A DNA stretch of 64,000 bases from Ignavibacteria bacterium. Its GTDB lineage: Bacteria > Bacteroidota > Ignavibacteria > Tepidaquicellales > OLB5. Below are positions 7,438-58,016 of this stretch, in pieces (position 1 is the stretch's first letter; the number at the start of each line of letters is the position of its first letter). Under the pieces are notes generated by a model. It was not told the DNA's origin. It saw nothing but the letters and a program-made list of their open reading frames with translations, and did no database searches. The stretch is from contig JAFLBX010000002.1 in NCBI GenBank assembly GCA_017303675.1, positions 957,642-1,021,641 of the forward strand. Reading direction: 5' to 3'. The position numbers and the translations under genes were made by a program.

Positions 7438-8109
7438 ATGCCAAAAGTGAAGCTTCAAACGGATAATATTAAGGAATGTTTGATAGTATCACATGGCAAA
7501 TTAGTAAAGAGTGACTTAAACTATATATTAAAATTTATTAAGCCCCGTAAGGCATTATTTATAATTGCCTGTGACGGGGCTTCTGAATTTCTGAAAGCCA
7601 GCAGTATCACCCCCGATGTAATTATAGGCGATCTTGATTCCATAAAACCCGCAGTCCTGAAATATTTTTCAAGGAAAAATGTCGTAATAAAAAAAGTATA
7701 TGACCAGAATAAGAACGACCTTGAAAAAGCTATCATTTATGCCCTATCGAAAAAATTCAAGCATATAAATATTATCGGTTTTGGCGGCAAAAGGCTGGAC
7801 CATACTCTGAACAATCTGAGTATACTTAAAAAATTTTACCTTAAGGCTGATATTAGAATATTTGATAATGGTTTCGAAGGTAAAATAATTAACAGGATTG
7901 TTGAAATTGATTGCCGTATTGGTGATACAGTATCACTGATCCCATTACCTGAAGCTGCAGGCATTACTACCAGCGGATTAAAATACCCATTAAAAAACGG
8001 CTCGCTTGAAATTGGAATTCGTGAAGGAGCGTTAAATGAAGCTGTTGCTGAAAAGGTTTCGGTAGAGATTAAATCAGGTGTATTGCTTGTATTAAATAAA
8101 TCTACTTAA
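7438..8109 (+). CDS. thiamine pyrophosphokinase
   Basis: Carries the ACDGAS...IIGDLDSI...DQNKNDLEKAI...GGKRLDH motifs of the TPK catalytic domain plus a C-terminal thiamine-binding-like domain. Confidence 0.75.
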   Translation: MPKVKLQTDNIKECLIVSHGKLVKSDLNYILKFIKPRKALFIIACDGASEFLKASSITPDVIIGDLDSIKPAVLKYFSRKNVVIKKVYDQNKNDLEKAIIYALSKKFKHINIIGFGGKRLDHTLNNLSILKKFYLKADIRIFDNGFEGKIINRIVEIDCRIGDTVSLIPLPEAAGITTSGLKYPLKNGSLEIGIREGALNEAVAEKVSVEIKSGVLLVLNKST

Positions 8110-8121
8110 TTCTATGCATCT

Positions 8122-8217
8122 AATTCTGCGAGGAGCAAAGAGACGAAGCAGTCTCTTTAGAACATATTGCCTGAATTATGAGATTGCTTCGCTGCGCTCG
8201 CAAAATTTAGTTCTATA
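8122..8217. repeat. approximately 97-bp hairpin repeat unit (X family), single copy
   Basis: aattctgcgaggagcaaagagacgaagcagtctc...atgagattgcttcgctgcgctcgcaaaattta. The two arms are imperfect reverse complements. Confidence 0.8.
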
Positions 8218-8224
8218 ATTGAAA

Positions 8225-8521
8225 TTAAAAACTTAATGTATCAAAAAAATCATCCCAATTGGGATTAATTTTGTTTATTAAGTCAATTTTCTTCTTTCTA
8301 GAACCCGCTTTAAGTTGTCTTTCCCTTGCTATGGCATCATCGCCATTTGCAAATAACTCATAATACACTAATTTATTTACATTGTACCTGGATGTAAATG
8401 ATTTTACTGTTTTATTTTTATGATCCAAAACTCTTTGGTATAAGTTTATTGTAAATCCTGTGTACAATACACTGTTATACTTATTTGTCATAATATAAAC
8501 GGCAAATGTTTCCTGGGTCAT
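8225..8521 (-). CDS. GIY-YIG nuclease superfamily protein (UPF0213-like)
   Basis: Has the VYIMTNKYNSVLYTGFTINLYQRVLDHKNK...YYELF......AIARERQLKAGSRKKK signature. Confidence 0.85.
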   Translation of the reverse strand: MTQETFAVYIMTNKYNSVLYTGFTINLYQRVLDHKNKTVKSFTSRYNVNKLVYYELFANGDDAIARERQLKAGSRKKKIDLINKINPNWDDFFDTLSF

Positions 8522-8552
8522 ATTTTATAATATTAATTTTTTAATTCTATTA

Positions 8553-8782
8553 ATGAGATTGCTTCGCTGCGCTCGCAAAATTTATTATTTTCAATTCTGC
8601 GAGGAGCGAAGCGACGAAGCAGTCTCATTAAGAACATATTGCCTGATTTATGAGATTACTTCGCTGCGCTCGTAAAATTTAATATTTTCAATTCTGCTAG
8701 GAGCGAAGCGACGAAGCAGTCTCATTAAGAACTCATTGCATGATCTATAAGATTGCTTCGCTTCGCTCGCAAATTCGCACCT
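8553..8782. repeat. X-family repeat array (half unit + two approximately 97-bp units)
   Basis: atgagattgcttcgctgcgctcgcaaaattta recurs at 8553, 8650 and 8750. aattctgcKaggagcgaagcgacgaagcagtctcattaagaac recurs at 8593 and 8690. Confidence 0.85.
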
Positions 8783-47356: not shown

Positions 47357-47745
47357 GTCATTCTGAACGAAGCGTAACGCAGTGAAGCGGAGTGAAGTCA
47401 CGCAGTGCTCTTCTACATCCAGACGATATTTTACAATGCATCTGTTTTCATTGAAATGCCCTTCGACTTCGCTCAGGGCGACAAAATTGCTTCGCTCGCA
47501 AAATTTATATTTTTCTTGTGACCCCCACTCCACGAGTCAAAGACTCGGTAGAGTCATAGACCTGCTCCCACATGGCAGAGCCAGTCCTTCGGCCTGTCAG
47601 GGGGAGAGTGACTATATTTGTCTTTCGGTTTCACTCGCAAAGCAGCAGTAGCAGGCGCGGCTTGCCCGCCTGGATTTATATTCATCAAAAGCAGACGTCC
47701 CATCATGCCGTTGGCTTGACCAGGCGGGACGTCTCTACAAAAAGC
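47357..47745. repeat. composite repeat block A-B-C (left flank of island)
   Basis: Module A is at 47357-47439, B at 47486-47615 and C at 47616-47745. Each matches modules at 54664-55300. Confidence 0.85.
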
Positions 47746-50840: not shown

Positions 50841-51320
50841 TCACTCTACTTCTACCAACCATTTATAATTAATCATTACCCAGCCATCCTCTGACTTTGG
50901 GTCAACTTTACTTGAACCTTTTACATTTAATGTTCCATCGATATTAACAGTAAAAGACCCATTTGATTTTAGCTTGTATAAGTTCTTTACGTTTTCTCTT
51001 GTTAAGTCACATCTTGGACAACCGACAACAGTTCCGTCATTGAAGTAACCGACAAGACCGCCATTAGATGAAAAGAGGTATTGTAATTTCCGCTTATTCT
51101 GATTTTCTTCTTTACTACTTTTATTATCTCGCTCTACTTTGTCCGTAGTGTTCTCTTTCTCAACTAACTCTTTTTCCCTAATATTTAATTCTTTTTCTTT
51201 TAAGTTTAATTCGCGCTCCTTTAATGAATCATCTTTCGTACATTTTGAGAGAGTGCAAATAAATAGAAACAAGAAAAAGCTTAAACAAGATTTCAAAAGA
51301 ATGTTTTTAATTTTTTCCAT
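50841..51320 (-). CDS. secreted/membrane-anchored protein with KE-rich coiled-coil, unknown function
   Basis: Signal-like LLKSCLSFFLFLFICTLSKC, a coiled-coil KERELNLKEKELNIREKELVEKE, and a C-terminal beta-rich domain with CPRCD. ATG 51320 is preferred; TTG 51338 is possible. Confidence 0.45.
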   Translation of the reverse strand: MEKIKNILLKSCLSFFLFLFICTLSKCTKDDSLKERELNLKEKELNIREKELVEKENTTDKVERDNKSSKEENQNKRKLQYLFSSNGGLVGYFNDGTVVGCPRCDLTRENVKNLYKLKSNGSFTVNIDGTLNVKGSSKVDPKSEDGWVMINYKWLVEVE

Positions 51321-51346
51321 ATTGTAATATTGTTTCAATTTCTATT

Positions 51347-54300
51347 TTAATCCCCCTCAACAATCTTTATTTCTTCTTCGGTTAAGCCGTAAAGCTCGTA
51401 AACCAACCGGTCAATCTGGCGGTCAAGTGCGTTGCTCTTATTTTCGTAAAAGGTTTTATCTTTGTCTGTGTTTACTCGGTTTAAAACTGATTTGGTTTTT
51501 ATCAAATTATCAACATTCTCAATAATAGCATAATAGATGTTTTTATTTTCATCCTTAATATTCTTAATTTTTAACCTTCCAAAATATTGTTTTGTACATG
51601 TAACCCACCCGCCCCTGAAAATATTACTTATATTTCTCAGGTACCAAAATAATAACTTTGAATTAATAAGACCTAATACGTATTTCTCTGAATAATTCTG
51701 ATTTAAAACAGTAATACTAAAACCTCCGCTTGCCATCAAACAATATTTCGAATTGCCCGATATTAGCGAAAAAGATCCTTTCTCTGCCAAAAGAGGAATT
51801 AGGATTTGAGAGTTTTCATGCAATTTCAAATTTCTAGGAGCGCTATAACTATACCATTCTTTGAATTGTTTTCTCTTTTTTAGCTGCAATTTGTTCTGTA
51901 TTAAATACTTGTATGCATTTGGGAATCTTTCATTCAATTCAGCCTCACCAATTAACTCAAAACCATCATTTATGAAATAATATGGAAAAATTATCCTAAA
52001 TGTATTTATAGGGTTGAATAAATATCTTTTGAAGTCTGTTGCAAATATTGGGACCCTACTGATTTCTGCTTCAATGTTATTTTTTGTAAATTCCGATTCA
52101 TCAAGCATAAAGATCTTATCATTACCCGAAGATGACCCCCTACTTATTTCACAAGGTAACTGTAATAATTCTGTTGTATTTAATTCTAATTTTTCAATAA
52201 TGCTCTTGAATTTTAAATTTTCGAATTCCCATTCAGTACCTATTTCTGAAATATCATAAGTAATGTATTCAATCTTATCCTCTCTTAAATTCGAAACACT
52301 TGGTTTAGAGAACCTAAATGAGTTTGTGCTCTTTTTTTGCAAAACTATAATTGACGTATAAGTAGTTGCATTTACGAATATTTGTTGTTGTCTAAAATCC
52401 AAAATTGTATTTAGAAGATTACCTGCATATATGAATTTTCGAATATTTTCTCCATAGTCAGTAGTAAAAAATTTATTAGGCACAATAAAACTAGTTAACC
52501 CTCTTTGATTAATGCTATATATAGCTTTTTCGATAAAAACTACATACAAATCATAATTGCCCGATTTGGCTGAAAGATAATATTTTTTCAAATAATCTGC
52601 AATTTTGGGTGTGGTTTCTTTGAAAATTTGAATTCTAACATACGGCGGATTACCAACAATTGCATCAAATCCACCATTTTTCATAATAGCAGGAAAGGCA
52701 TCTTCAAAGTTCATTGCGTTAATTTTCTTTTCTTCTTCTTCAGACCACCCCGTCGCTTCGCGCCACCCCTCCTTGGCAAGGAGGGGAGCGTCGTTTGTAT
52801 AAATATCAGTACCAATTAATGAGTTACCGCAGATAATATTTTTGCTCAGGTCAGGCAGGATCTTTTCTTTAAACATTGCCTGCATTTCGTTTGCAGTTGC
52901 AAGGGTTTCATCTTCAAGCAGCTTTAAATAAAGTGAAAGCTGGGTTACTTCAACTGCCTGGTGATCAATATCAACTCCGTAAACATTATTAAGGAGAATC
53001 TGCCTTTTCTGTTTTAGTGAAAGTACCCACAAGCCATTACTGAAAATACAGCCGTCAGCTTTTGCTTCCTTAGGGTTTAGCTGGTAATACTTTGAGTGAT
53101 ACCTGAGAAGAGTATCGTAAACGGTAATTAAAAATGAACCGCTTCCGCAGGAAATATCGGCAAACCTAAGCTTTGATATTTCAGCAGGTGTTTTACCTTC
53201 GATAAGCTTGCCTACAGTGTTATCAACAATATACTGGACAATATACTGCGGAGTGTAATAAACGCCGCCGGCTTTGCGAACTTCGGGTTTTTCTTCAATG
53301 GTAACACGTTTATCTGTAGCGTGAACTACCTTACCCAGGAAGCGCTCATATATGCTGCCTAATATGTGAATCGGGATCGAGTTAAAGTTATACGGCGAGT
53401 TAATATGAGAAAGCTCTTTGCAAATATCCTCAAAGTCTTTGTCATCAGGGACAATTGCTGTGTTAGACCCCCTTTGTATTTCCCCATTGTTAAGTGGGAG
53501 TCGATCGATGAAATGCTCTTTAAATACGATACCGTTATACTTAGCATTGAGCGAGCGGCAGTCAGCAATGAAATCACCCCATGCTGTGCCTTTATCTCCA
53601 TATGTGCTTATATGATGCTCGCCTTCTATCAGCATATCTTCGAGGAAACGGATAAATACAAGGCGGTCAATTGTCCGCTGGGTTGCCTCGGTTAATTCTT
53701 CACTTGTAAGCGCGGGGTTTTTCTTTTTGAAAGAGCGGGCAAGGGTATTTCTGATCTCATCGAGCTCTTCAAGGAATGATTCATCAATGCTCTGGTATGA
53801 ACCGGGGAACAAGCCTTTTTGCACGGCTTTGCCGCGCGGCTTCGGCATTGTTTCGGCAAATTTTTCTATTGAGCCTGATTCAACCGCTTCACGGGAAAAG
53901 AGGTAATACAGCTTAGAGAATTTTTCCTTATCGGTATATTCAGTGTAATGGAAGCTTAAAACTTTCCGTTCTTTGGTATATTTTATATCAGGCTTATAAC
54001 GTGAATCCAGAATATGGAATTCTTCGAAATCAGTGAGGACAACAAGCGGAGTTTGGGCATTCCATCCGTAACGTATCGCCTGGAAGGAATCATATGGATT
54101 GGCAAGTGAGCGGGAGGGTTTTTTAGCTTCAACATAAAATTTGGGGTCACGGTAATTTGGTGAAAGGAAAAAAGCGTAATCAGCGCGTTTTTGGGTTTCT
54201 TTATCTTTTACACGGCGTTCTACTTTTACTTCCTGCTCGTAAGGATTTTTCTGGTGTTCATGGTTTACGTCCCATCCCAGGGCAATGAACAGCTTATCTA

Positions 54301-54415
54301 TGAAATCAAGCCTTGCCTGGGATTCAGAGTAATCAGAGGCCAGGTAATGTTTTTCGTTGGCGTTAAAATCGTTTACAAGTTTTTCAATTAAGCTGTATGC
54401 AGATTCAAGGGACAT
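51347..54415 (-). CDS. type IIG restriction-modification enzyme (fused PD-(D/E)xK nuclease, gamma-class N6-adenine methyltransferase, TaqI-like specificity domain; Eco57I-like)
   Basis: The N-terminal nuclease motif is ADYAFFL...FYVEAKKP. The AdoMet motif I is ADISCGSGSFL and motif IV is IVGNPPYV. The C-terminal LINSKLLFWYLRNISNIFRGGWVTCTKQYFGRLKI is TaqI_C-like. The 1022-aa ORF is intact. Confidence 0.85.
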   Translation of the reverse strand: MSLESAYSLIEKLVNDFNANEKHYLASDYSESQARLDFIDKLFIALGWDVNHEHQKNPYEQEVKVERRVKDKETQKRADYAFFLSPNYRDPKFYVEAKKPSRSLANPYDSFQAIRYGWNAQTPLVVLTDFEEFHILDSRYKPDIKYTKERKVLSFHYTEYTDKEKFSKLYYLFSREAVESGSIEKFAETMPKPRGKAVQKGLFPGSYQSIDESFLEELDEIRNTLARSFKKKNPALTSEELTEATQRTIDRLVFIRFLEDMLIEGEHHISTYGDKGTAWGDFIADCRSLNAKYNGIVFKEHFIDRLPLNNGEIQRGSNTAIVPDDKDFEDICKELSHINSPYNFNSIPIHILGSIYERFLGKVVHATDKRVTIEEKPEVRKAGGVYYTPQYIVQYIVDNTVGKLIEGKTPAEISKLRFADISCGSGSFLITVYDTLLRYHSKYYQLNPKEAKADGCIFSNGLWVLSLKQKRQILLNNVYGVDIDHQAVEVTQLSLYLKLLEDETLATANEMQAMFKEKILPDLSKNIICGNSLIGTDIYTNDAPLLAKEGWREATGWSEEEEKKINAMNFEDAFPAIMKNGGFDAIVGNPPYVRIQIFKETTPKIADYLKKYYLSAKSGNYDLYVVFIEKAIYSINQRGLTSFIVPNKFFTTDYGENIRKFIYAGNLLNTILDFRQQQIFVNATTYTSIIVLQKKSTNSFRFSKPSVSNLREDKIEYITYDISEIGTEWEFENLKFKSIIEKLELNTTELLQLPCEISRGSSSGNDKIFMLDESEFTKNNIEAEISRVPIFATDFKRYLFNPINTFRIIFPYYFINDGFELIGEAELNERFPNAYKYLIQNKLQLKKRKQFKEWYSYSAPRNLKLHENSQILIPLLAEKGSFSLISGNSKYCLMASGGFSITVLNQNYSEKYVLGLINSKLLFWYLRNISNIFRGGWVTCTKQYFGRLKIKNIKDENKNIYYAIIENVDNLIKTKSVLNRVNTDKDKTFYENKSNALDRQIDRLVYELYGLTEEEIKIVEGD
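52766..52786. repeat. perfect 9-bp-stem palindrome inside the R-M coding sequence
   Basis: cccctccttggcaaggagggg sits within a roughly 50-nt patch of about 70% GC (52744-52793). The patch encodes ...PLLAKEGWREATGWSEE... in frame. Confidence 0.8.
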
Positions 54416-54663: not shown

Positions 54664-54905
54664 GAGATTGCTTCGCTTTCGCTTGCAATTTATATATTTT
54701 TCTTGTGACCCCCACTCCACGAGTCAAGGACTCGGTAGAGTCATAGACCAACTCCCCCTGCAAGGGGGAGAGTGACTATGTTTGCCCTACGATTTCGCTA
54801 GCAAAGCTTCTGCAGCAGGCGCGGCTTGCCCGCCTGGATTTATTTATTCATCAAAAGCAGACCTCCCCTAATGCCGCTGGCTTGACCAAGCGGGACGTTT
54901 CTACA
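54664..54905. repeat. composite repeat block B-C (right flank of island, same orientation as the left copy)
   Basis: It shares two identical runs with 47486-47560: atttttcttgtgacccccactccacgagtcaa (32 nt) and gactcggtagagtcatagacc (21 nt). It also shares gcaggcgcggcttgcccgcctggatttat and catcaaaagcagac. Confidence 0.85.
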
Positions 54906-55011: not shown

Positions 55012-55300
55012 GTCATTCTGAACGAAGCGAAGCGGAGTGAAGTCACGCAGTGCTCTTCTACATCTAGACGATTTTTTACAATGCTACCGACTCATTTGGA
55101 ATTCCCTCCGCTCGCAAAATTATTATGGGCTTCTGCAGCAGGTGCGGCTTGTCCGCCTGGATTTATTCATTCATCAAAAGCAGACGTCCCAGCGGGACGT
55201 CTATACAGAGGCAAAATTTTTATTTTTCTTGTGACCCCCTCTCCACGAGTCAAAGACTCGGTAGAGTCATAGACCTGCTCCCCCTGCCAGGGGGAGAGTC
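55012..55300. repeat. composite repeat block A-C'-B' (rearranged third set)
   Basis: Module A is at 55012-55084 (gtcattctgaacgaagcgaagcggagtgaagtcacgcagtgctcttctacatctagacg). A shortened C is at 55125-55205 and B at 55210-55300. Confidence 0.85.
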
Positions 55301-57542: not shown

Positions 57543-58016
57543 ATGCTTCAGACTGTACAAAAGAACATATTCATATATAAATTTCTCAGCGGGTTAACGC
57601 CTGTTGGGTTCAGCAAATATACGCTGTGTTACGTATCATTTAAGCCGCGTGCCGGCAGCGGGTATTTTGGTGTAGCTGAAGGTGATGAGTTCCGCGAGAA
57701 GCTTGAAGGAAAAATTGTAATTAAAGCTTGGAAAGAGCTGCCGGGGAAATTCCCGATCTGTATACTTGGCGATTACTCCATAACTCCTGATACATTCAGC
57801 GGAATAATTATGATAGATAATTCCCAGGCGCTTGATAACCCGAAAAAGTATATTCCAAAAATACTTTCGGCTTTCAAGAACCGCTCGACACTTCTGCTTA
57901 ACCAGTTCCACGGAACACACGGCAGGGTTTTCTGGGAAAATGCTTATGATGAAATTACAATAGACAGTGTTGAATCATTCAACAAAGCTTTGAATCTGCT
58001 AAAGAAAGAAAATTAA
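57543..58016 (+). CDS. REP-associated tyrosine transposase (RAYT / IS200-Y1)-like protein with degenerate HUH motif
   Basis: GKIVIKAWKELPGKFPICILGDYSITPDTFSGIIMI parallels the family pattern G..V...W.EL...FP.I.LDEFV.MPNH.H.I. RVFWENAYDEITIDSVESFNKALNLL parallels LWQRNYYEHIIRNE..L.RI..YI. The H-x-H is replaced by T-F-S. This match is recalled from memory and was not searched. Confidence 0.5.
   Translation: MLQTVQKNIFIYKFLSGLTPVGFSKYTLCYVSFKPRAGSGYFGVAEGDEFREKLEGKIVIKAWKELPGKFPICILGDYSITPDTFSGIIMIDNSQALDNPKKYIPKILSAFKNRSTLLLNQFHGTHGRVFWENAYDEITIDSVESFNKALNLLKKEN

What the first reader, a model, noticed from the sequence alone, without database searches (positions are those of the whole stretch)
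52744..52793. In-frame GC-rich palindromic repeat inside the R-M gene, coinciding with a compositional break
Inside the 1022-aa ORF there is a roughly 50-nt patch of about 70% GC, containing the perfect palindrome CCCCTCCTTGGCAAGGAGGGG. It is translated in frame as PLLAKEGWREATGWSEE. It resembles the C-rich hairpins of the intergenic repeat families in this window, such as ctccccctgcaagggggag and cccctctcctgaaaggagagg.

Hand counts of 60-nt lines give 42-45% GC on the 5' side of the gene (53.1-54.0 kb: nuclease domain and AdoMet motif I). On the 3' side they give 25-35% (51.6-52.6 kb: NPPY motif and TaqI-like specificity domain).

The patch therefore sits at the junction, between methyltransferase motifs I and IV. 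This looks like a REP/MITE-type element tolerated in a coding loop, possibly marking a recombination joint where the specificity half of the enzyme and the downstream AT-rich cassette were swapped in.
Basis: seen in the sequence. Interest (0 to 1): 0.62.

Follow-up and report, generated by a model that had tools for sequence, protein, structure and literature searches.

The report
Repeat hairpin inserted in restriction gene
A 51-base GC-rich hairpin repeat that normally sits just after genes in this bacterial lineage has been inserted in frame into a floppy loop of a restriction-modification enzyme, a known kind of event, and it is not the point where the enzyme's DNA-recognition half was swapped.

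Summary
Window 52744-52793 is 72% GC, contains the perfect palindrome, and reads in frame inside a 1022-aa Type IIG (Eco57I/MmeI-like) R-M gene.

The patch is a 51-nt copy (52789..52739, minus strand) of a dispersed two-hairpin repeat: CCCCTCCT-loop-AGGAGGGG, a variable second hairpin, then GGGGTGGT.
- There are 17 strict copies in this genome.
- The repeat occurs in 18/21 genomes of the genus, 3/4 other genera of the family, and 0/16 genomes of the neighbouring family.
- Most copies lie just downstream of co-oriented genes.

About 75% of homologues have a 13-residue loop at this site. Only four near-identical alleles share the insert. An AlphaFold model makes it a disordered coil. Other homologues carry unrelated hairpin repeats in the same loop.

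The compositional break is real, but it belongs to a target-recognition-domain cassette swap. Its 5' joint lies immediately after the NPPY codons (52640/52639), about 100 nt 3' of the element. The 3' joint lies about 120 nt before the stop codon.

Insert and cassette are unlinked: alleles with the insert carry other cassettes, and the allele with the most similar cassette lacks the insert.

Verdict: an in-frame REP-like insertion, analogous to Rickettsia palindromic elements. It is a new member of a known kind and of moderate interest.

The parts
51347..54415 (-). Type IIG single-chain restriction-modification gene (1022 aa): N-terminal PD-(D/E)xK nuclease, gamma-class N6-adenine methyltransferase, TaqI-like recognition domain
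   Evidence: ORF. Pfam Eco57I 4.9e-43, N6_Mtase, MmeI_Mtase, TaqI_C, HSDR_N. Invariant D79/E96/K98 and NPPY. Fold matches to CamA, M.BseCI, BpuSI, PglX and MmeI.
52739..52789 (-). 51-nt in-frame repeat element GCTCCCCTCCTTGCCAAGGAGGGGTGGCGCGAAGCGACGGGGTGGTCTGAA, encoding A543-E559
   Evidence: Family copies aligned. Stand-alone copies 92-94% identical in other species.
52766..52786 (-). Hairpin 1: perfect palindrome CCCCTCCTT-GCC-AAGGAGGGG
   Evidence: The 67-nt context folds at -26.5 kcal/mol as RNA.
52752..52764 (-). Hairpin 2 (GGCGC-GAA-GCGAC, one G.A mismatch); the variable module of the family
   Evidence: Hairpin 2 is stable in 16 of 17 genomic copies; this copy is the exception. Covariation on 9 same-length copies: 93% of cells paired against 78% when shuffled, 0/500. 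Replaced by TCCCGC-ACT-GCGGGA in alleles L004, L005 and L006.
52744..52751 (-). Conserved 3' tail GGGGTGGT of the element
52640..54415 (-). Conserved N-terminal module (start codon to NPPY), about 42% GC; 95-100% nt identity to metagenomic allele L005
52640..52651 (-). NPPY (motif IV) codons; the 5' joint of the recognition-domain cassette lies immediately 3' of them (52640/52639)
51470..52639 (-). AT-rich (about 29% GC) target-recognition-domain cassette. Unrelated to those of L001, L004 and L005; 60-77% nt identity to L002
51347..51469 (-). Conserved C-terminal tail (about 120 nt); the 3' flank of the cassette
   Evidence: Identity returns to 0.71-0.85 in all alleles. Tail identity 0.79-0.92 at protein level.
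50841..51338 (-). Downstream 165-aa gene that accompanies the R-M gene independently of recognition-domain type
   Evidence: 85% aa identity to the gene downstream of P0014 in L007. No Pfam hit.

Best explanation
**What the patch is.** It is a 51-nt copy of a lineage-specific, REP-like, two-hairpin repeat. The architecture is hairpin 1 (CCCCTCCT...AGGAGGGG), a sequence-variable hairpin 2, and a GGGGTGGT tail. The copy entered the R-M gene in frame, in the sense orientation.

**What it replaced.** It replaced the short variable tripeptide region of a 13-residue loop (ancestral D-G-N-M-F-P-G-E) between methyltransferase motifs I and IV.

**Why it is tolerated.**
- Its C/G-rich sequence has no stop codons.
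- Its length is a multiple of three.
- The loop is disordered and permissive.

It is most likely simply translated as an extra loop of about 13 net residues and carried as a passenger. This step is inferred.

**Its history.** It arose once in the N-terminal module of a small allele group. That module has since been combined with several different recognition-domain cassettes.

**The compositional break.** It reflects that modular architecture: a conserved module of about 42% GC, then an AT-rich exchangeable recognition-domain cassette bounded by NPPY and a conserved C-terminal tail. It does not reflect the element.

**How the repeat spreads.** This is unknown. The messy filled/empty junction (60 nt for 21 nt, no duplication) suggests illegitimate or microhomology-mediated copying rather than cut-and-paste transposition. 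This is also inferred.
For: **Family membership**
- The pattern CCCCTCCT N3-24 AGGAGGGG N8-36 GGGGTGGT has 17 copies in the genome. It occurs in 18/21 same-genus genomes, 3/4 other genera of the family and 0/16 genomes of the sister family. The reversed control gives 0 everywhere.
- The nearest own-genome copy differs only in the hairpin-1 loop and the hairpin-2 stem.
- Free-standing copies in other species are 92-94% identical to the patch.
- Hairpin 2 varies in sequence but folds in 16/17 copies and shows compensatory changes.

**Normal habitat**
- 14/17 copies are non-coding, and about 10 lie 12-160 nt after the stop codon of a co-oriented ORF.
- GC-rich hairpins are depleted from ORFs: 25/229 lie inside long ORFs, which cover 84% of the genome.

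**Derived insertion**
- 83/111 homologues have the 13-residue loop.
- Only P0003, P0005, P0006 and P0007 (N-module identity 0.92-0.98) share the insert. Six equally close alleles lack it.
- Species-representative relatives have empty sites.
- DNA-level filled and empty sites are shown.

**Permissive loop**
- AlphaFold gives mean pLDDT 82.5, but below 50 and coil for residues 541-554/558.
- CamA leaves query residues 498-582 unaligned.
- At least four unrelated hairpin elements occupy the same loop in other homologues.

**Joint located elsewhere**
-.

**Same process in other genes of this genome**
- QueG (30 aa against 9 aa in PDB 5D08).
- A CxxCxxCC protein where 116 aa match 71 profile positions.
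- RimO, a GNAT acetyltransferase and others.
Against: - The filled site is not a clean insertion. The four or five codons 5' of the element also differ (TNDA against DGNMF), so the exact boundaries and mechanism are unresolved.
- No transposase, terminal inverted repeats or target duplication were found. None of the 11 Y1_Tnp loci is flanked by this family.
- Perfect retention of the hairpin-1 stem in 4 of 5 alleles hints at some nucleic-acid-level constraint or ongoing gene conversion, which a pure passenger model does not predict. So does an in-frame replacement of hairpin 2 by another hairpin between alleles about 97% identical.
Confidence: 0.8

Rival explanations
1. The hairpin marks or promotes the recombination joint at which the specificity half and the downstream AT-rich genes were swapped in.
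For: The ML GC change point (52741) falls at the 3' edge of the patch, with support 52594-52751. The gene is a mosaic.
Against: - Nucleotide identity to L005 stays at 95-100% through and beyond the element and collapses only after the NPPY TAT codon at 52640.
- Insert-free alleles break at the same place.
- Insert and recognition-domain type are unlinked: P0002 has a similar domain and no insert, while P0003, P0005, P0006 and P0007 have the insert and other domains.
- The downstream gene matches a locus with a different recognition domain.
- With the patch masked, the change point moves to the other side.
Confidence: 0.05
2. The intragenic copy is functional at the nucleic-acid level. Candidate roles are a transcription attenuator, an mRNA processing or stability site, a ribosome pause tuning nuclease-methylase expression, or an active partner in ectopic gene conversion with other copies. 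Under this view it is retained by selection rather than merely tolerated.
For: - It is in the sense orientation and forms a stable RNA hairpin of -26.5 kcal/mol.
- The hairpin-1 stem is intact in 4 of 5 alleles, while the encoded residues change (A/S/G in the loop codon, L to I, E to A, E to D).
- Hairpin 2 is replaced by a different, perfect hairpin, in frame, inside a context about 97% identical.
- Family members normally sit in 3' UTR positions typical of RNA-level elements.
Against: - No U-tract follows the element.
- Hairpin 2 of this copy is weak, with 30% of shuffles as stable.
- The fold z-score is only -1.9.
- Six equally close alleles do without it.
- Only five alleles are available and there are no expression data.
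Confidence: 0.12
3. The sequence is an ancestral loop lost elsewhere, or a chance palindrome or assembly artefact.
For: None beyond its presence in five alleles.
Against: - 83/111 homologues from many phyla have the short loop.
- The DNA is 92-94% identical to free-standing repeats of the host lineage.
- Chance expectation is about 5 GC-rich hairpins per genome against 314 observed.
- The same insert is seen in five independent assemblies.
Confidence: 0.02

Closest known systems
Rickettsia palindromic elements (RPEs; Ogata et al. 2000/2002, Claverie and Ogata 2003, as summarised in PMC10969869 and PMC3733652)
   Same: - A dispersed palindromic repeat inserted in frame into genes for apparently functional proteins, adding a peptide at a structurally permissive site.
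- Several unrelated genes of one genome are affected; here they include the R-M gene, QueG, RimO, a GNAT acetyltransferase and a CxxCxxCC protein.
   Different: - It is much shorter (51 nt against about 100-150 bp).
- The sequence is unrelated.
- The host is a free-living Ignavibacteria-type lineage (names, an inference), not an obligate intracellular alphaproteobacterium.
- Only a small minority of copies are intragenic (3 of 17 strict copies).
REP / GTAG- and CGTC-tagged palindromic repeats (Di Nocera et al. 2013, PMC3733652)
   Same: - Short GC-rich stem-loops, dozens of copies, mostly downstream of coding regions between co-directional or convergent genes.
- That paper also reports REPs lying entirely within ORFs.
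- The same genome holds classical RAYT-flanked REP families.
   Different: - This family has no GTAG or CGTC tag.
- It has a fixed two-hairpin architecture with a variable second hairpin and a conserved GGGGTGGT tail.
- It flanks none of the 11 Y1_Tnp genes.
Target-recognition-domain movement in Type IIG, Type I and Type III methyltransferases (Furuta et al. 2014, PMC3983042; MmeI family modularity, PMC4833311, PMC2731914)
   Same: A conserved catalytic module is joined to exchangeable recognition-domain cassettes, bounded by conserved sequence on both sides. This explains the compositional and homology break.
   Different: These papers do not involve a repeat element, and here the element plays no detectable part in the exchange.
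Intragenic MITEs of Coxiella burnetii (QMITE1/2, PMC5896051) and intragenic ERIC/BOX elements (reviewed in PMC10969869)
   Same: Small non-autonomous repeats that create in-frame fusions in host ORFs.
   Different: Those elements have terminal inverted repeats and are 70-300 bp long. This element shows neither inverted termini nor a target duplication.

Membership tests
Type IIG (Eco57I/MmeI-like) single-chain R-M enzyme (host gene) | N-terminal PD-(D/E)xK nuclease domain | tested here: met
   HSDR_N 2.1e-6. Invariant D79, E96, K98 across 65 homologues.
Type IIG (Eco57I/MmeI-like) single-chain R-M enzyme (host gene) | Gamma-class N6-adenine methyltransferase with motif I (xGxGxF) and motif IV NPPY | tested here: met
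   Eco57I 4.9e-43, N6_Mtase 2.8e-19, MmeI_Mtase 3.1e-12. DISCGSGSF at residue 420 and NPPY at 589. Fold match to CamA at E 4e-29.
Type IIG (Eco57I/MmeI-like) single-chain R-M enzyme (host gene) | C-terminal TaqI-like target recognition domain in the same polypeptide | tested here: met
   TaqI_C 1.8e-6, just over the cut-off. The CamA alignment covers residues 582-933.
Type IIG (Eco57I/MmeI-like) single-chain R-M enzyme (host gene) | Cleavage and methylation activity | not testable with these tools
   Needs expression and assay.
REP (repetitive extragenic palindrome) families | Short GC-rich palindromic unit present in many dispersed copies | tested here: met
   17 strict copies in the genome; present across the genus and family; the reversed control gives 0.
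REP (repetitive extragenic palindrome) families | Predominantly extragenic, downstream of ORFs | tested here: met
   14/17 copies are non-coding, and about 10 lie 12-160 nt after the stop codon of a co-oriented ORF.
REP (repetitive extragenic palindrome) families | GTAG or CGTC tetranucleotide tag at one end (Di Nocera 2013) | tested here: not met
   The ends are (A/T-rich)GCTCCCCTCC and GGGGTGGT. Other hairpins in the genome do carry CGTC.
REP (repetitive extragenic palindrome) families | Cognate RAYT (Y1 transposase) gene flanked by the same repeat | tested here: not met
   11 Y1_Tnp loci. Those that have flanking hairpins are flanked by other hairpin types and none by this family.
RPE-like protein-coding palindromes | In-frame insertion in an otherwise conserved, intact gene, absent from orthologues | tested here: met
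RPE-like protein-coding palindromes | Insert lies at a surface or permissive position of the fold | tested here: met
   pLDDT below 50 and coil for residues 541-554/558 in an otherwise confident model. The region is unaligned in CamA. This rests on a prediction, not a solved structure.
RPE-like protein-coding palindromes | Sequence membership in RPE-1 to RPE-10 of Rickettsia | not tested
   No RPE sequences were compared. The taxon and length differ, so only the mode of action is claimed, not membership.
MITE | Terminal inverted repeats | tested here: not met
   The 5' end GCTCCCCTCC and 3' end GGGGTGGT(CTGAA) are not reverse complements.
MITE | Target-site duplication at a filled site compared with an empty site | tested here: not met
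   60 nt replace 21 nt with no duplication, and the junction is remodelled. Only one insertion event could be examined.

The most novel reading that the evidence does not exclude
**Hot spot.** The loop after the conserved G-x-[LM]-F of Eco57I-family methyltransferase domains is a cross-phylum hot spot. It repeatedly captures whichever hairpin repeat its host genome carries.

**Active copy.** In this allele group the captured element is not inert:
- its hairpins are kept or regenerated inside the reading frame;
- hairpin 2 was exchanged in frame between alleles about 97% identical;
- this could happen by ectopic gene conversion or by selection on an RNA/DNA structure that modulates expression of the self-toxic R-M enzyme.

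**New class.** The repeat family itself would be a new, RAYT-independent class of two-hairpin 3'-UTR element.
Probability: 0.15. Interest if true: 0.6.

Novelty: new member of a known kind. Interest (0 to 1): 0.4.

Why it matters
- **A worked example outside Rickettsia.** It shows how short genomic repeats add peptide segments to essential-fold enzymes. This genome has about eight further candidate cases.
- **A permissive loop.** It pinpoints a naturally permissive loop in Eco57I-type Type IIG enzymes. About 18% of the sampled homologues carry some insert there, which is useful for tagging or engineering.
- **Precise cassette boundaries.** It maps the natural recognition-domain cassette boundaries (immediately after NPPY, and about 40 codons before the C-terminus) that evolution uses to reassort specificity.
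- **A caution for annotation.** GC spikes inside AT-rich genes can be repeat insertions rather than horizontal-transfer joints.

Tried and rejected
- **Rfam.** Neither the gathering search of the whole window nor the permissive search around the patch found a family.
- **RAYT association.** I looked for a RAYT gene flanked by this repeat. 11 Y1_Tnp loci were found, and those with flanking hairpins are flanked by other hairpin types.
- **MITE hallmarks.** No terminal inverted repeats or target duplication were found, and the filled/empty junction is messy.
- **Link to a second repeat.** The patch spacer has a 75% match to the GCGAAGC-containing repeats around the GIY-YIG gene at 8.1-8.8 kb (I24/I25). 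I treat this as a shared mini-hairpin motif, not common descent, because the better relatives are the GGGGTGGT-tailed copies.
- **Hairpin 2 decay.** I first read the weak hairpin 2 as decay in the coding copy. However, a free-standing copy in another species (L022) has the same G.A mismatch, so this is not evidence of decay.
- **Compositional change point.** It is too imprecise to locate the joint, since masking the patch moves it by 100 nt. Homology breakpoints were used instead.
- **Homoserine dehydrogenase.** Its N-terminal 'in-frame' hairpins (C2:897661-899331) were rejected as probably upstream non-coding sequence read through by the ORF finder.
Full report
**1. The observation**

The gene strand is minus.
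- Window 52744-52793 reads CGACGCTCCCCTCCTTGCCAAGGAGGGGTGGCGCGAAGCGACGGGGTGGT. That is 50 nt at 72% GC.
- It lies in frame in ORF 51347-54415 (1022 aa).
- Pfam identifies the ORF as an Eco57I/MmeI-type Type IIG R-M enzyme with an HSDR_N nuclease, an N6-adenine methyltransferase and a TaqI_C recognition domain.
- The fold search agrees, matching CamA, M.BseCI, BpuSI, PglX and MmeI.
- The insert (residues 543-559) lies between motif I (residue 420) and NPPY (residue 589).

The GC contrast is real.
- GC is about 0.40-0.48 for 52.65-54.4 kb and about 0.27-0.33 for 49.8-52.65 kb.
- A likelihood change-point test gives 52741, with LLR 24.8 against at most 7.4 in permutations.
- Masking the patch moves the estimate to 52844, so composition alone locates the break only to about 52.6-52.9 kb.
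- GC-rich perfect hairpins are about 60-fold over chance genome-wide: 314 observed against 2-6 simulated.

**2. What the patch is**

A genome search shows it belongs to a dispersed family. The architecture is (A/T-rich)GCT-CCCCTCCT-loop-AGGAGGGG, a linker, hairpin 2, then GGGGTGGT. The full unit here is 51 nt (52789..52739), which is 17 codons.

The strict pattern has this distribution:

| Group searched | Result |
|---|---|
| This genome | 17 copies |
| Same genus | 18 of 21 genomes |
| Other genera of the same family | 3 of 4 genomes |
| Sister family | 0 of 16 genomes |
| Reversed-pattern control | 0 everywhere |

- Hairpin 2 differs in sequence from copy to copy. It is significantly stable in 16/17 own-genome copies.
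- It shows compensatory double changes in nine same-length copies that I selected by eye: 93% of cells paired against 78% shuffled, 0/500.
- Free-standing copies in other species are 92-94% identical to the patch. One example is G016:C147, CCCCTCCTTAGCAAGGAGGGGTGGCGCGCAGCGACGGGGTGGTCTGAA.
- No Rfam family matches.

**3. Normal habitat of the family**

- 14 of the 17 copies are non-coding. About ten lie 12-160 nt after the stop codon of a co-oriented ORF. This is the position typical of REPs (PMC3733652).
- GC-rich hairpins in general avoid coding sequence: 25 of 229 lie inside long ORFs, which cover 84% of the genome.
- The genome has 11 Y1_Tnp (RAYT/IS200-like) loci. Those with nearby hairpins are flanked by other types (CCCACGAC.., CGATGGGC.., AGACGCCCC..), never by this family.
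- No mobiliser is identified.

**4. It is a derived insertion in a permissive loop**

- Among 111 parsable homologues, 83 have a 13-residue loop, such as Y-D-G-N-M-F-P-G-E-E-E-R-K.
- Only P0003, P0005, P0006 and P0007 share the insert. Their N-terminal modules are 0.92-0.98 identical to this one. Six equally close alleles (P0002, P0008, P0012, P0014, P0015, P0016) lack it.
- R-M homologues in species-representative relatives have empty sites, with a 24-25 nt gap where this gene has 61 nt.
- At DNA level, 60 nt (ACAAACGAC plus the 51-nt unit) stand where empty alleles have 21 nt. There is no duplication and the 5' junction is remodelled.
- The AlphaFold model is confident overall (mean pLDDT 82.5, pTM 0.71). 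It gives pLDDT below 50 and coil for residues 541-554/558.
- The closest solved relative, CamA, leaves query residues 498-582 unaligned.

Other homologues carry different hairpin elements in the very same loop:
- a nested ACCTCACCC...CCCTCTCCTT-GCC-AAGGAGAGGG...GGGGTGAGGT palindrome (P0009, P0013);
- CCCCTCTCCTT-GAT-AAGGAGAGGGG followed by GGGGTGAGGTC (P0111);
- a dimer of CGTC-type REPs (P0061);
- a VETRH...ASSLQ element (P0029, P0078).

The loop has therefore been hit independently at least four times.

**5. The compositional break is a recognition-domain cassette boundary, not the element**

- Nucleotide alignment with three alleles shows 80-89% identity over the first 1.75 kb. Identity collapses after NPPY for L001 and L004 and recovers in the last 120-130 nt or so. 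L002, which has no insert, stays at 60-77% through the recognition domain.
- Against L005, identity is 95-100% from the start codon (54415) to the TAT of NPPY (52640). It is about 0.3-0.5 from there to about 51470, 0.85 to the stop codon, and unrelated outside the gene.
- Insert-free alleles of the same module also diverge right after NPP[YW].
- All four aligned alleles show the same GC drop in their unrelated recognition domains. AT-richness is therefore a property of the cassette pool.
- The downstream 165-aa gene is 85% identical to the gene following P0014, which has a different recognition domain. The AT-rich stretch is not a single imported block.
- This is the domain movement already described for Type IIG and Type I enzymes (PMC3983042; PMC4833311).

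**6. Mechanism**

*Shown*
- Family membership.
- Derived status of the insert.
- Frame preservation.
- Permissive and disordered location.
- Independence from the cassette joint.

*Inferred*
- The element was copied into the loop by illegitimate or microhomology-mediated recombination.
- It is translated as a passenger loop. Changes within it among alleles are mostly non-synonymous (A/S/G, L to I, E to A, E to D). The flanks change mostly synonymously: 0.8-0.97 nt identity against 0.92-0.98 aa identity.

*A residual oddity*
- The hairpin-1 stem is intact in four of five alleles.
- Hairpin 2 is replaced in frame by another perfect hairpin (CGC-GAA-GCG against TCCCGC-ACT-GCGGGA) between alleles about 97% identical.
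- The hairpin-2 type is also incongruent with flank similarity.
- This hints at gene conversion with other copies, or at structure-level constraint.

**7. The same process elsewhere in this genome**

In-frame hairpin repeats occur in the following genes.

| Gene | Location | Note |
|---|---|---|
| QueG | C1:2047563-2048594 | 30 aa where B. subtilis QueG has 9 |
| CxxCxxCC protein | C2:1231430-1232131 | three elements; 116 aa for 71 profile positions |
| RimO | C1:692350-693726 | |
| GNAT acetyltransferase | C1:748903-749424 | |
| Second large methyltransferase | C1:257701-260952 | |
| 990-aa repeat protein | C1:1012386-1015355 | |
| RAYT-like gene | C2:1022051-1022578 | |

Only QueG and the CxxCxxCC protein were checked against homologues.

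**8. Comparison and verdict**

- The patch works like the Rickettsia palindromic elements and like the intragenic REPs reported by Di Nocera et al. (PMC3733652; PMC10969869).
- It is not a member of those sequence families. It fails the GTAG/CGTC-tag and RAYT-linkage criteria for classical REPs, and the inverted-terminus and target-duplication criteria for MITEs.
- It is a new member of a known kind.
The 'tolerated repeat in a loop' reading is supported. The 'marks the recombination joint' reading is not.

Noticed in passing
own genome outside the window: C1:2047563-2048594, C2:1231430-1232131, C1:692350-693726, C1:748903-749424, C1:257701-260952, C1:1012386-1015355: Further in-frame GC-rich hairpin repeats occur in QueG, a CxxCxxCC (YkgJ-like) protein with three elements, RimO, a GNAT acetyltransferase, a second large N6-methyltransferase/R-M-like protein and a 990-aa repeat protein. 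This resembles the Rickettsia pattern of coding palindromes.
   Followed up: partly
window 8100-8780: A 98-aa GIY-YIG nuclease gene (8225-8521, minus strand) is embedded in an array of repeats of about 97 nt. The repeats contain GAGCGAAGCGACGAAGCAGTCTC and its complement, which include the stable d(GCGAAGC) mini-hairpin motif also present in the patch.
   Followed up: partly
window 47498-47703, 54685-54867, 55129-55299: Composite repeat modules of about 200 nt (repeat finder D11 and D18) bracket the 7-kb island that holds the R-M gene. A rearranged third copy follows.
   Followed up: no
L001 and L002 (relatives) compared with window 45-57 kb: In two related genomes the homologous R-M gene sits between lpxD and lpxC-fabZ. 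Here it sits between an SBP_bac_5-type substrate-binding protein gene (assigned by eye from the translation, not tested) and the atpDC genes. The locus itself has moved.
   Followed up: no
own genome, 11 loci (e.g. C1:483378-483725, C2:1530258-1530575, C2:1022051-1022578): There are 11 Y1_Tnp (RAYT/IS200-like) loci. Several are flanked by their own distinct REP type. The one just beyond the window end carries an in-frame copy of its own flanking REP (ETPQRGVS).
   Followed up: partly
L008:4872-5423: A Y1_Tnp gene flanked by CCCACGAC/CCCATAGC-type REPs lies directly downstream of the P0009 R-M gene. That R-M gene carries a different hairpin insert in the same loop.
   Followed up: no
window 57543-58016: The 157-aa ORF looks RAYT-like by eye (ITPDTFSGII against VMPNHFHGII) but has no Pfam hit. 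This fits a degenerate relative.
   Followed up: partly
element hairpin 1, window 52766-52786 and all family copies: The 3' arm of hairpin 1 contains a perfect Shine-Dalgarno-like AGGAGG, sequestered by a CCTCCT arm. The GGGGTGG tail could pair alternatively with the CUCCCC of the 5' arm. The significance is unknown.
   Followed up: no
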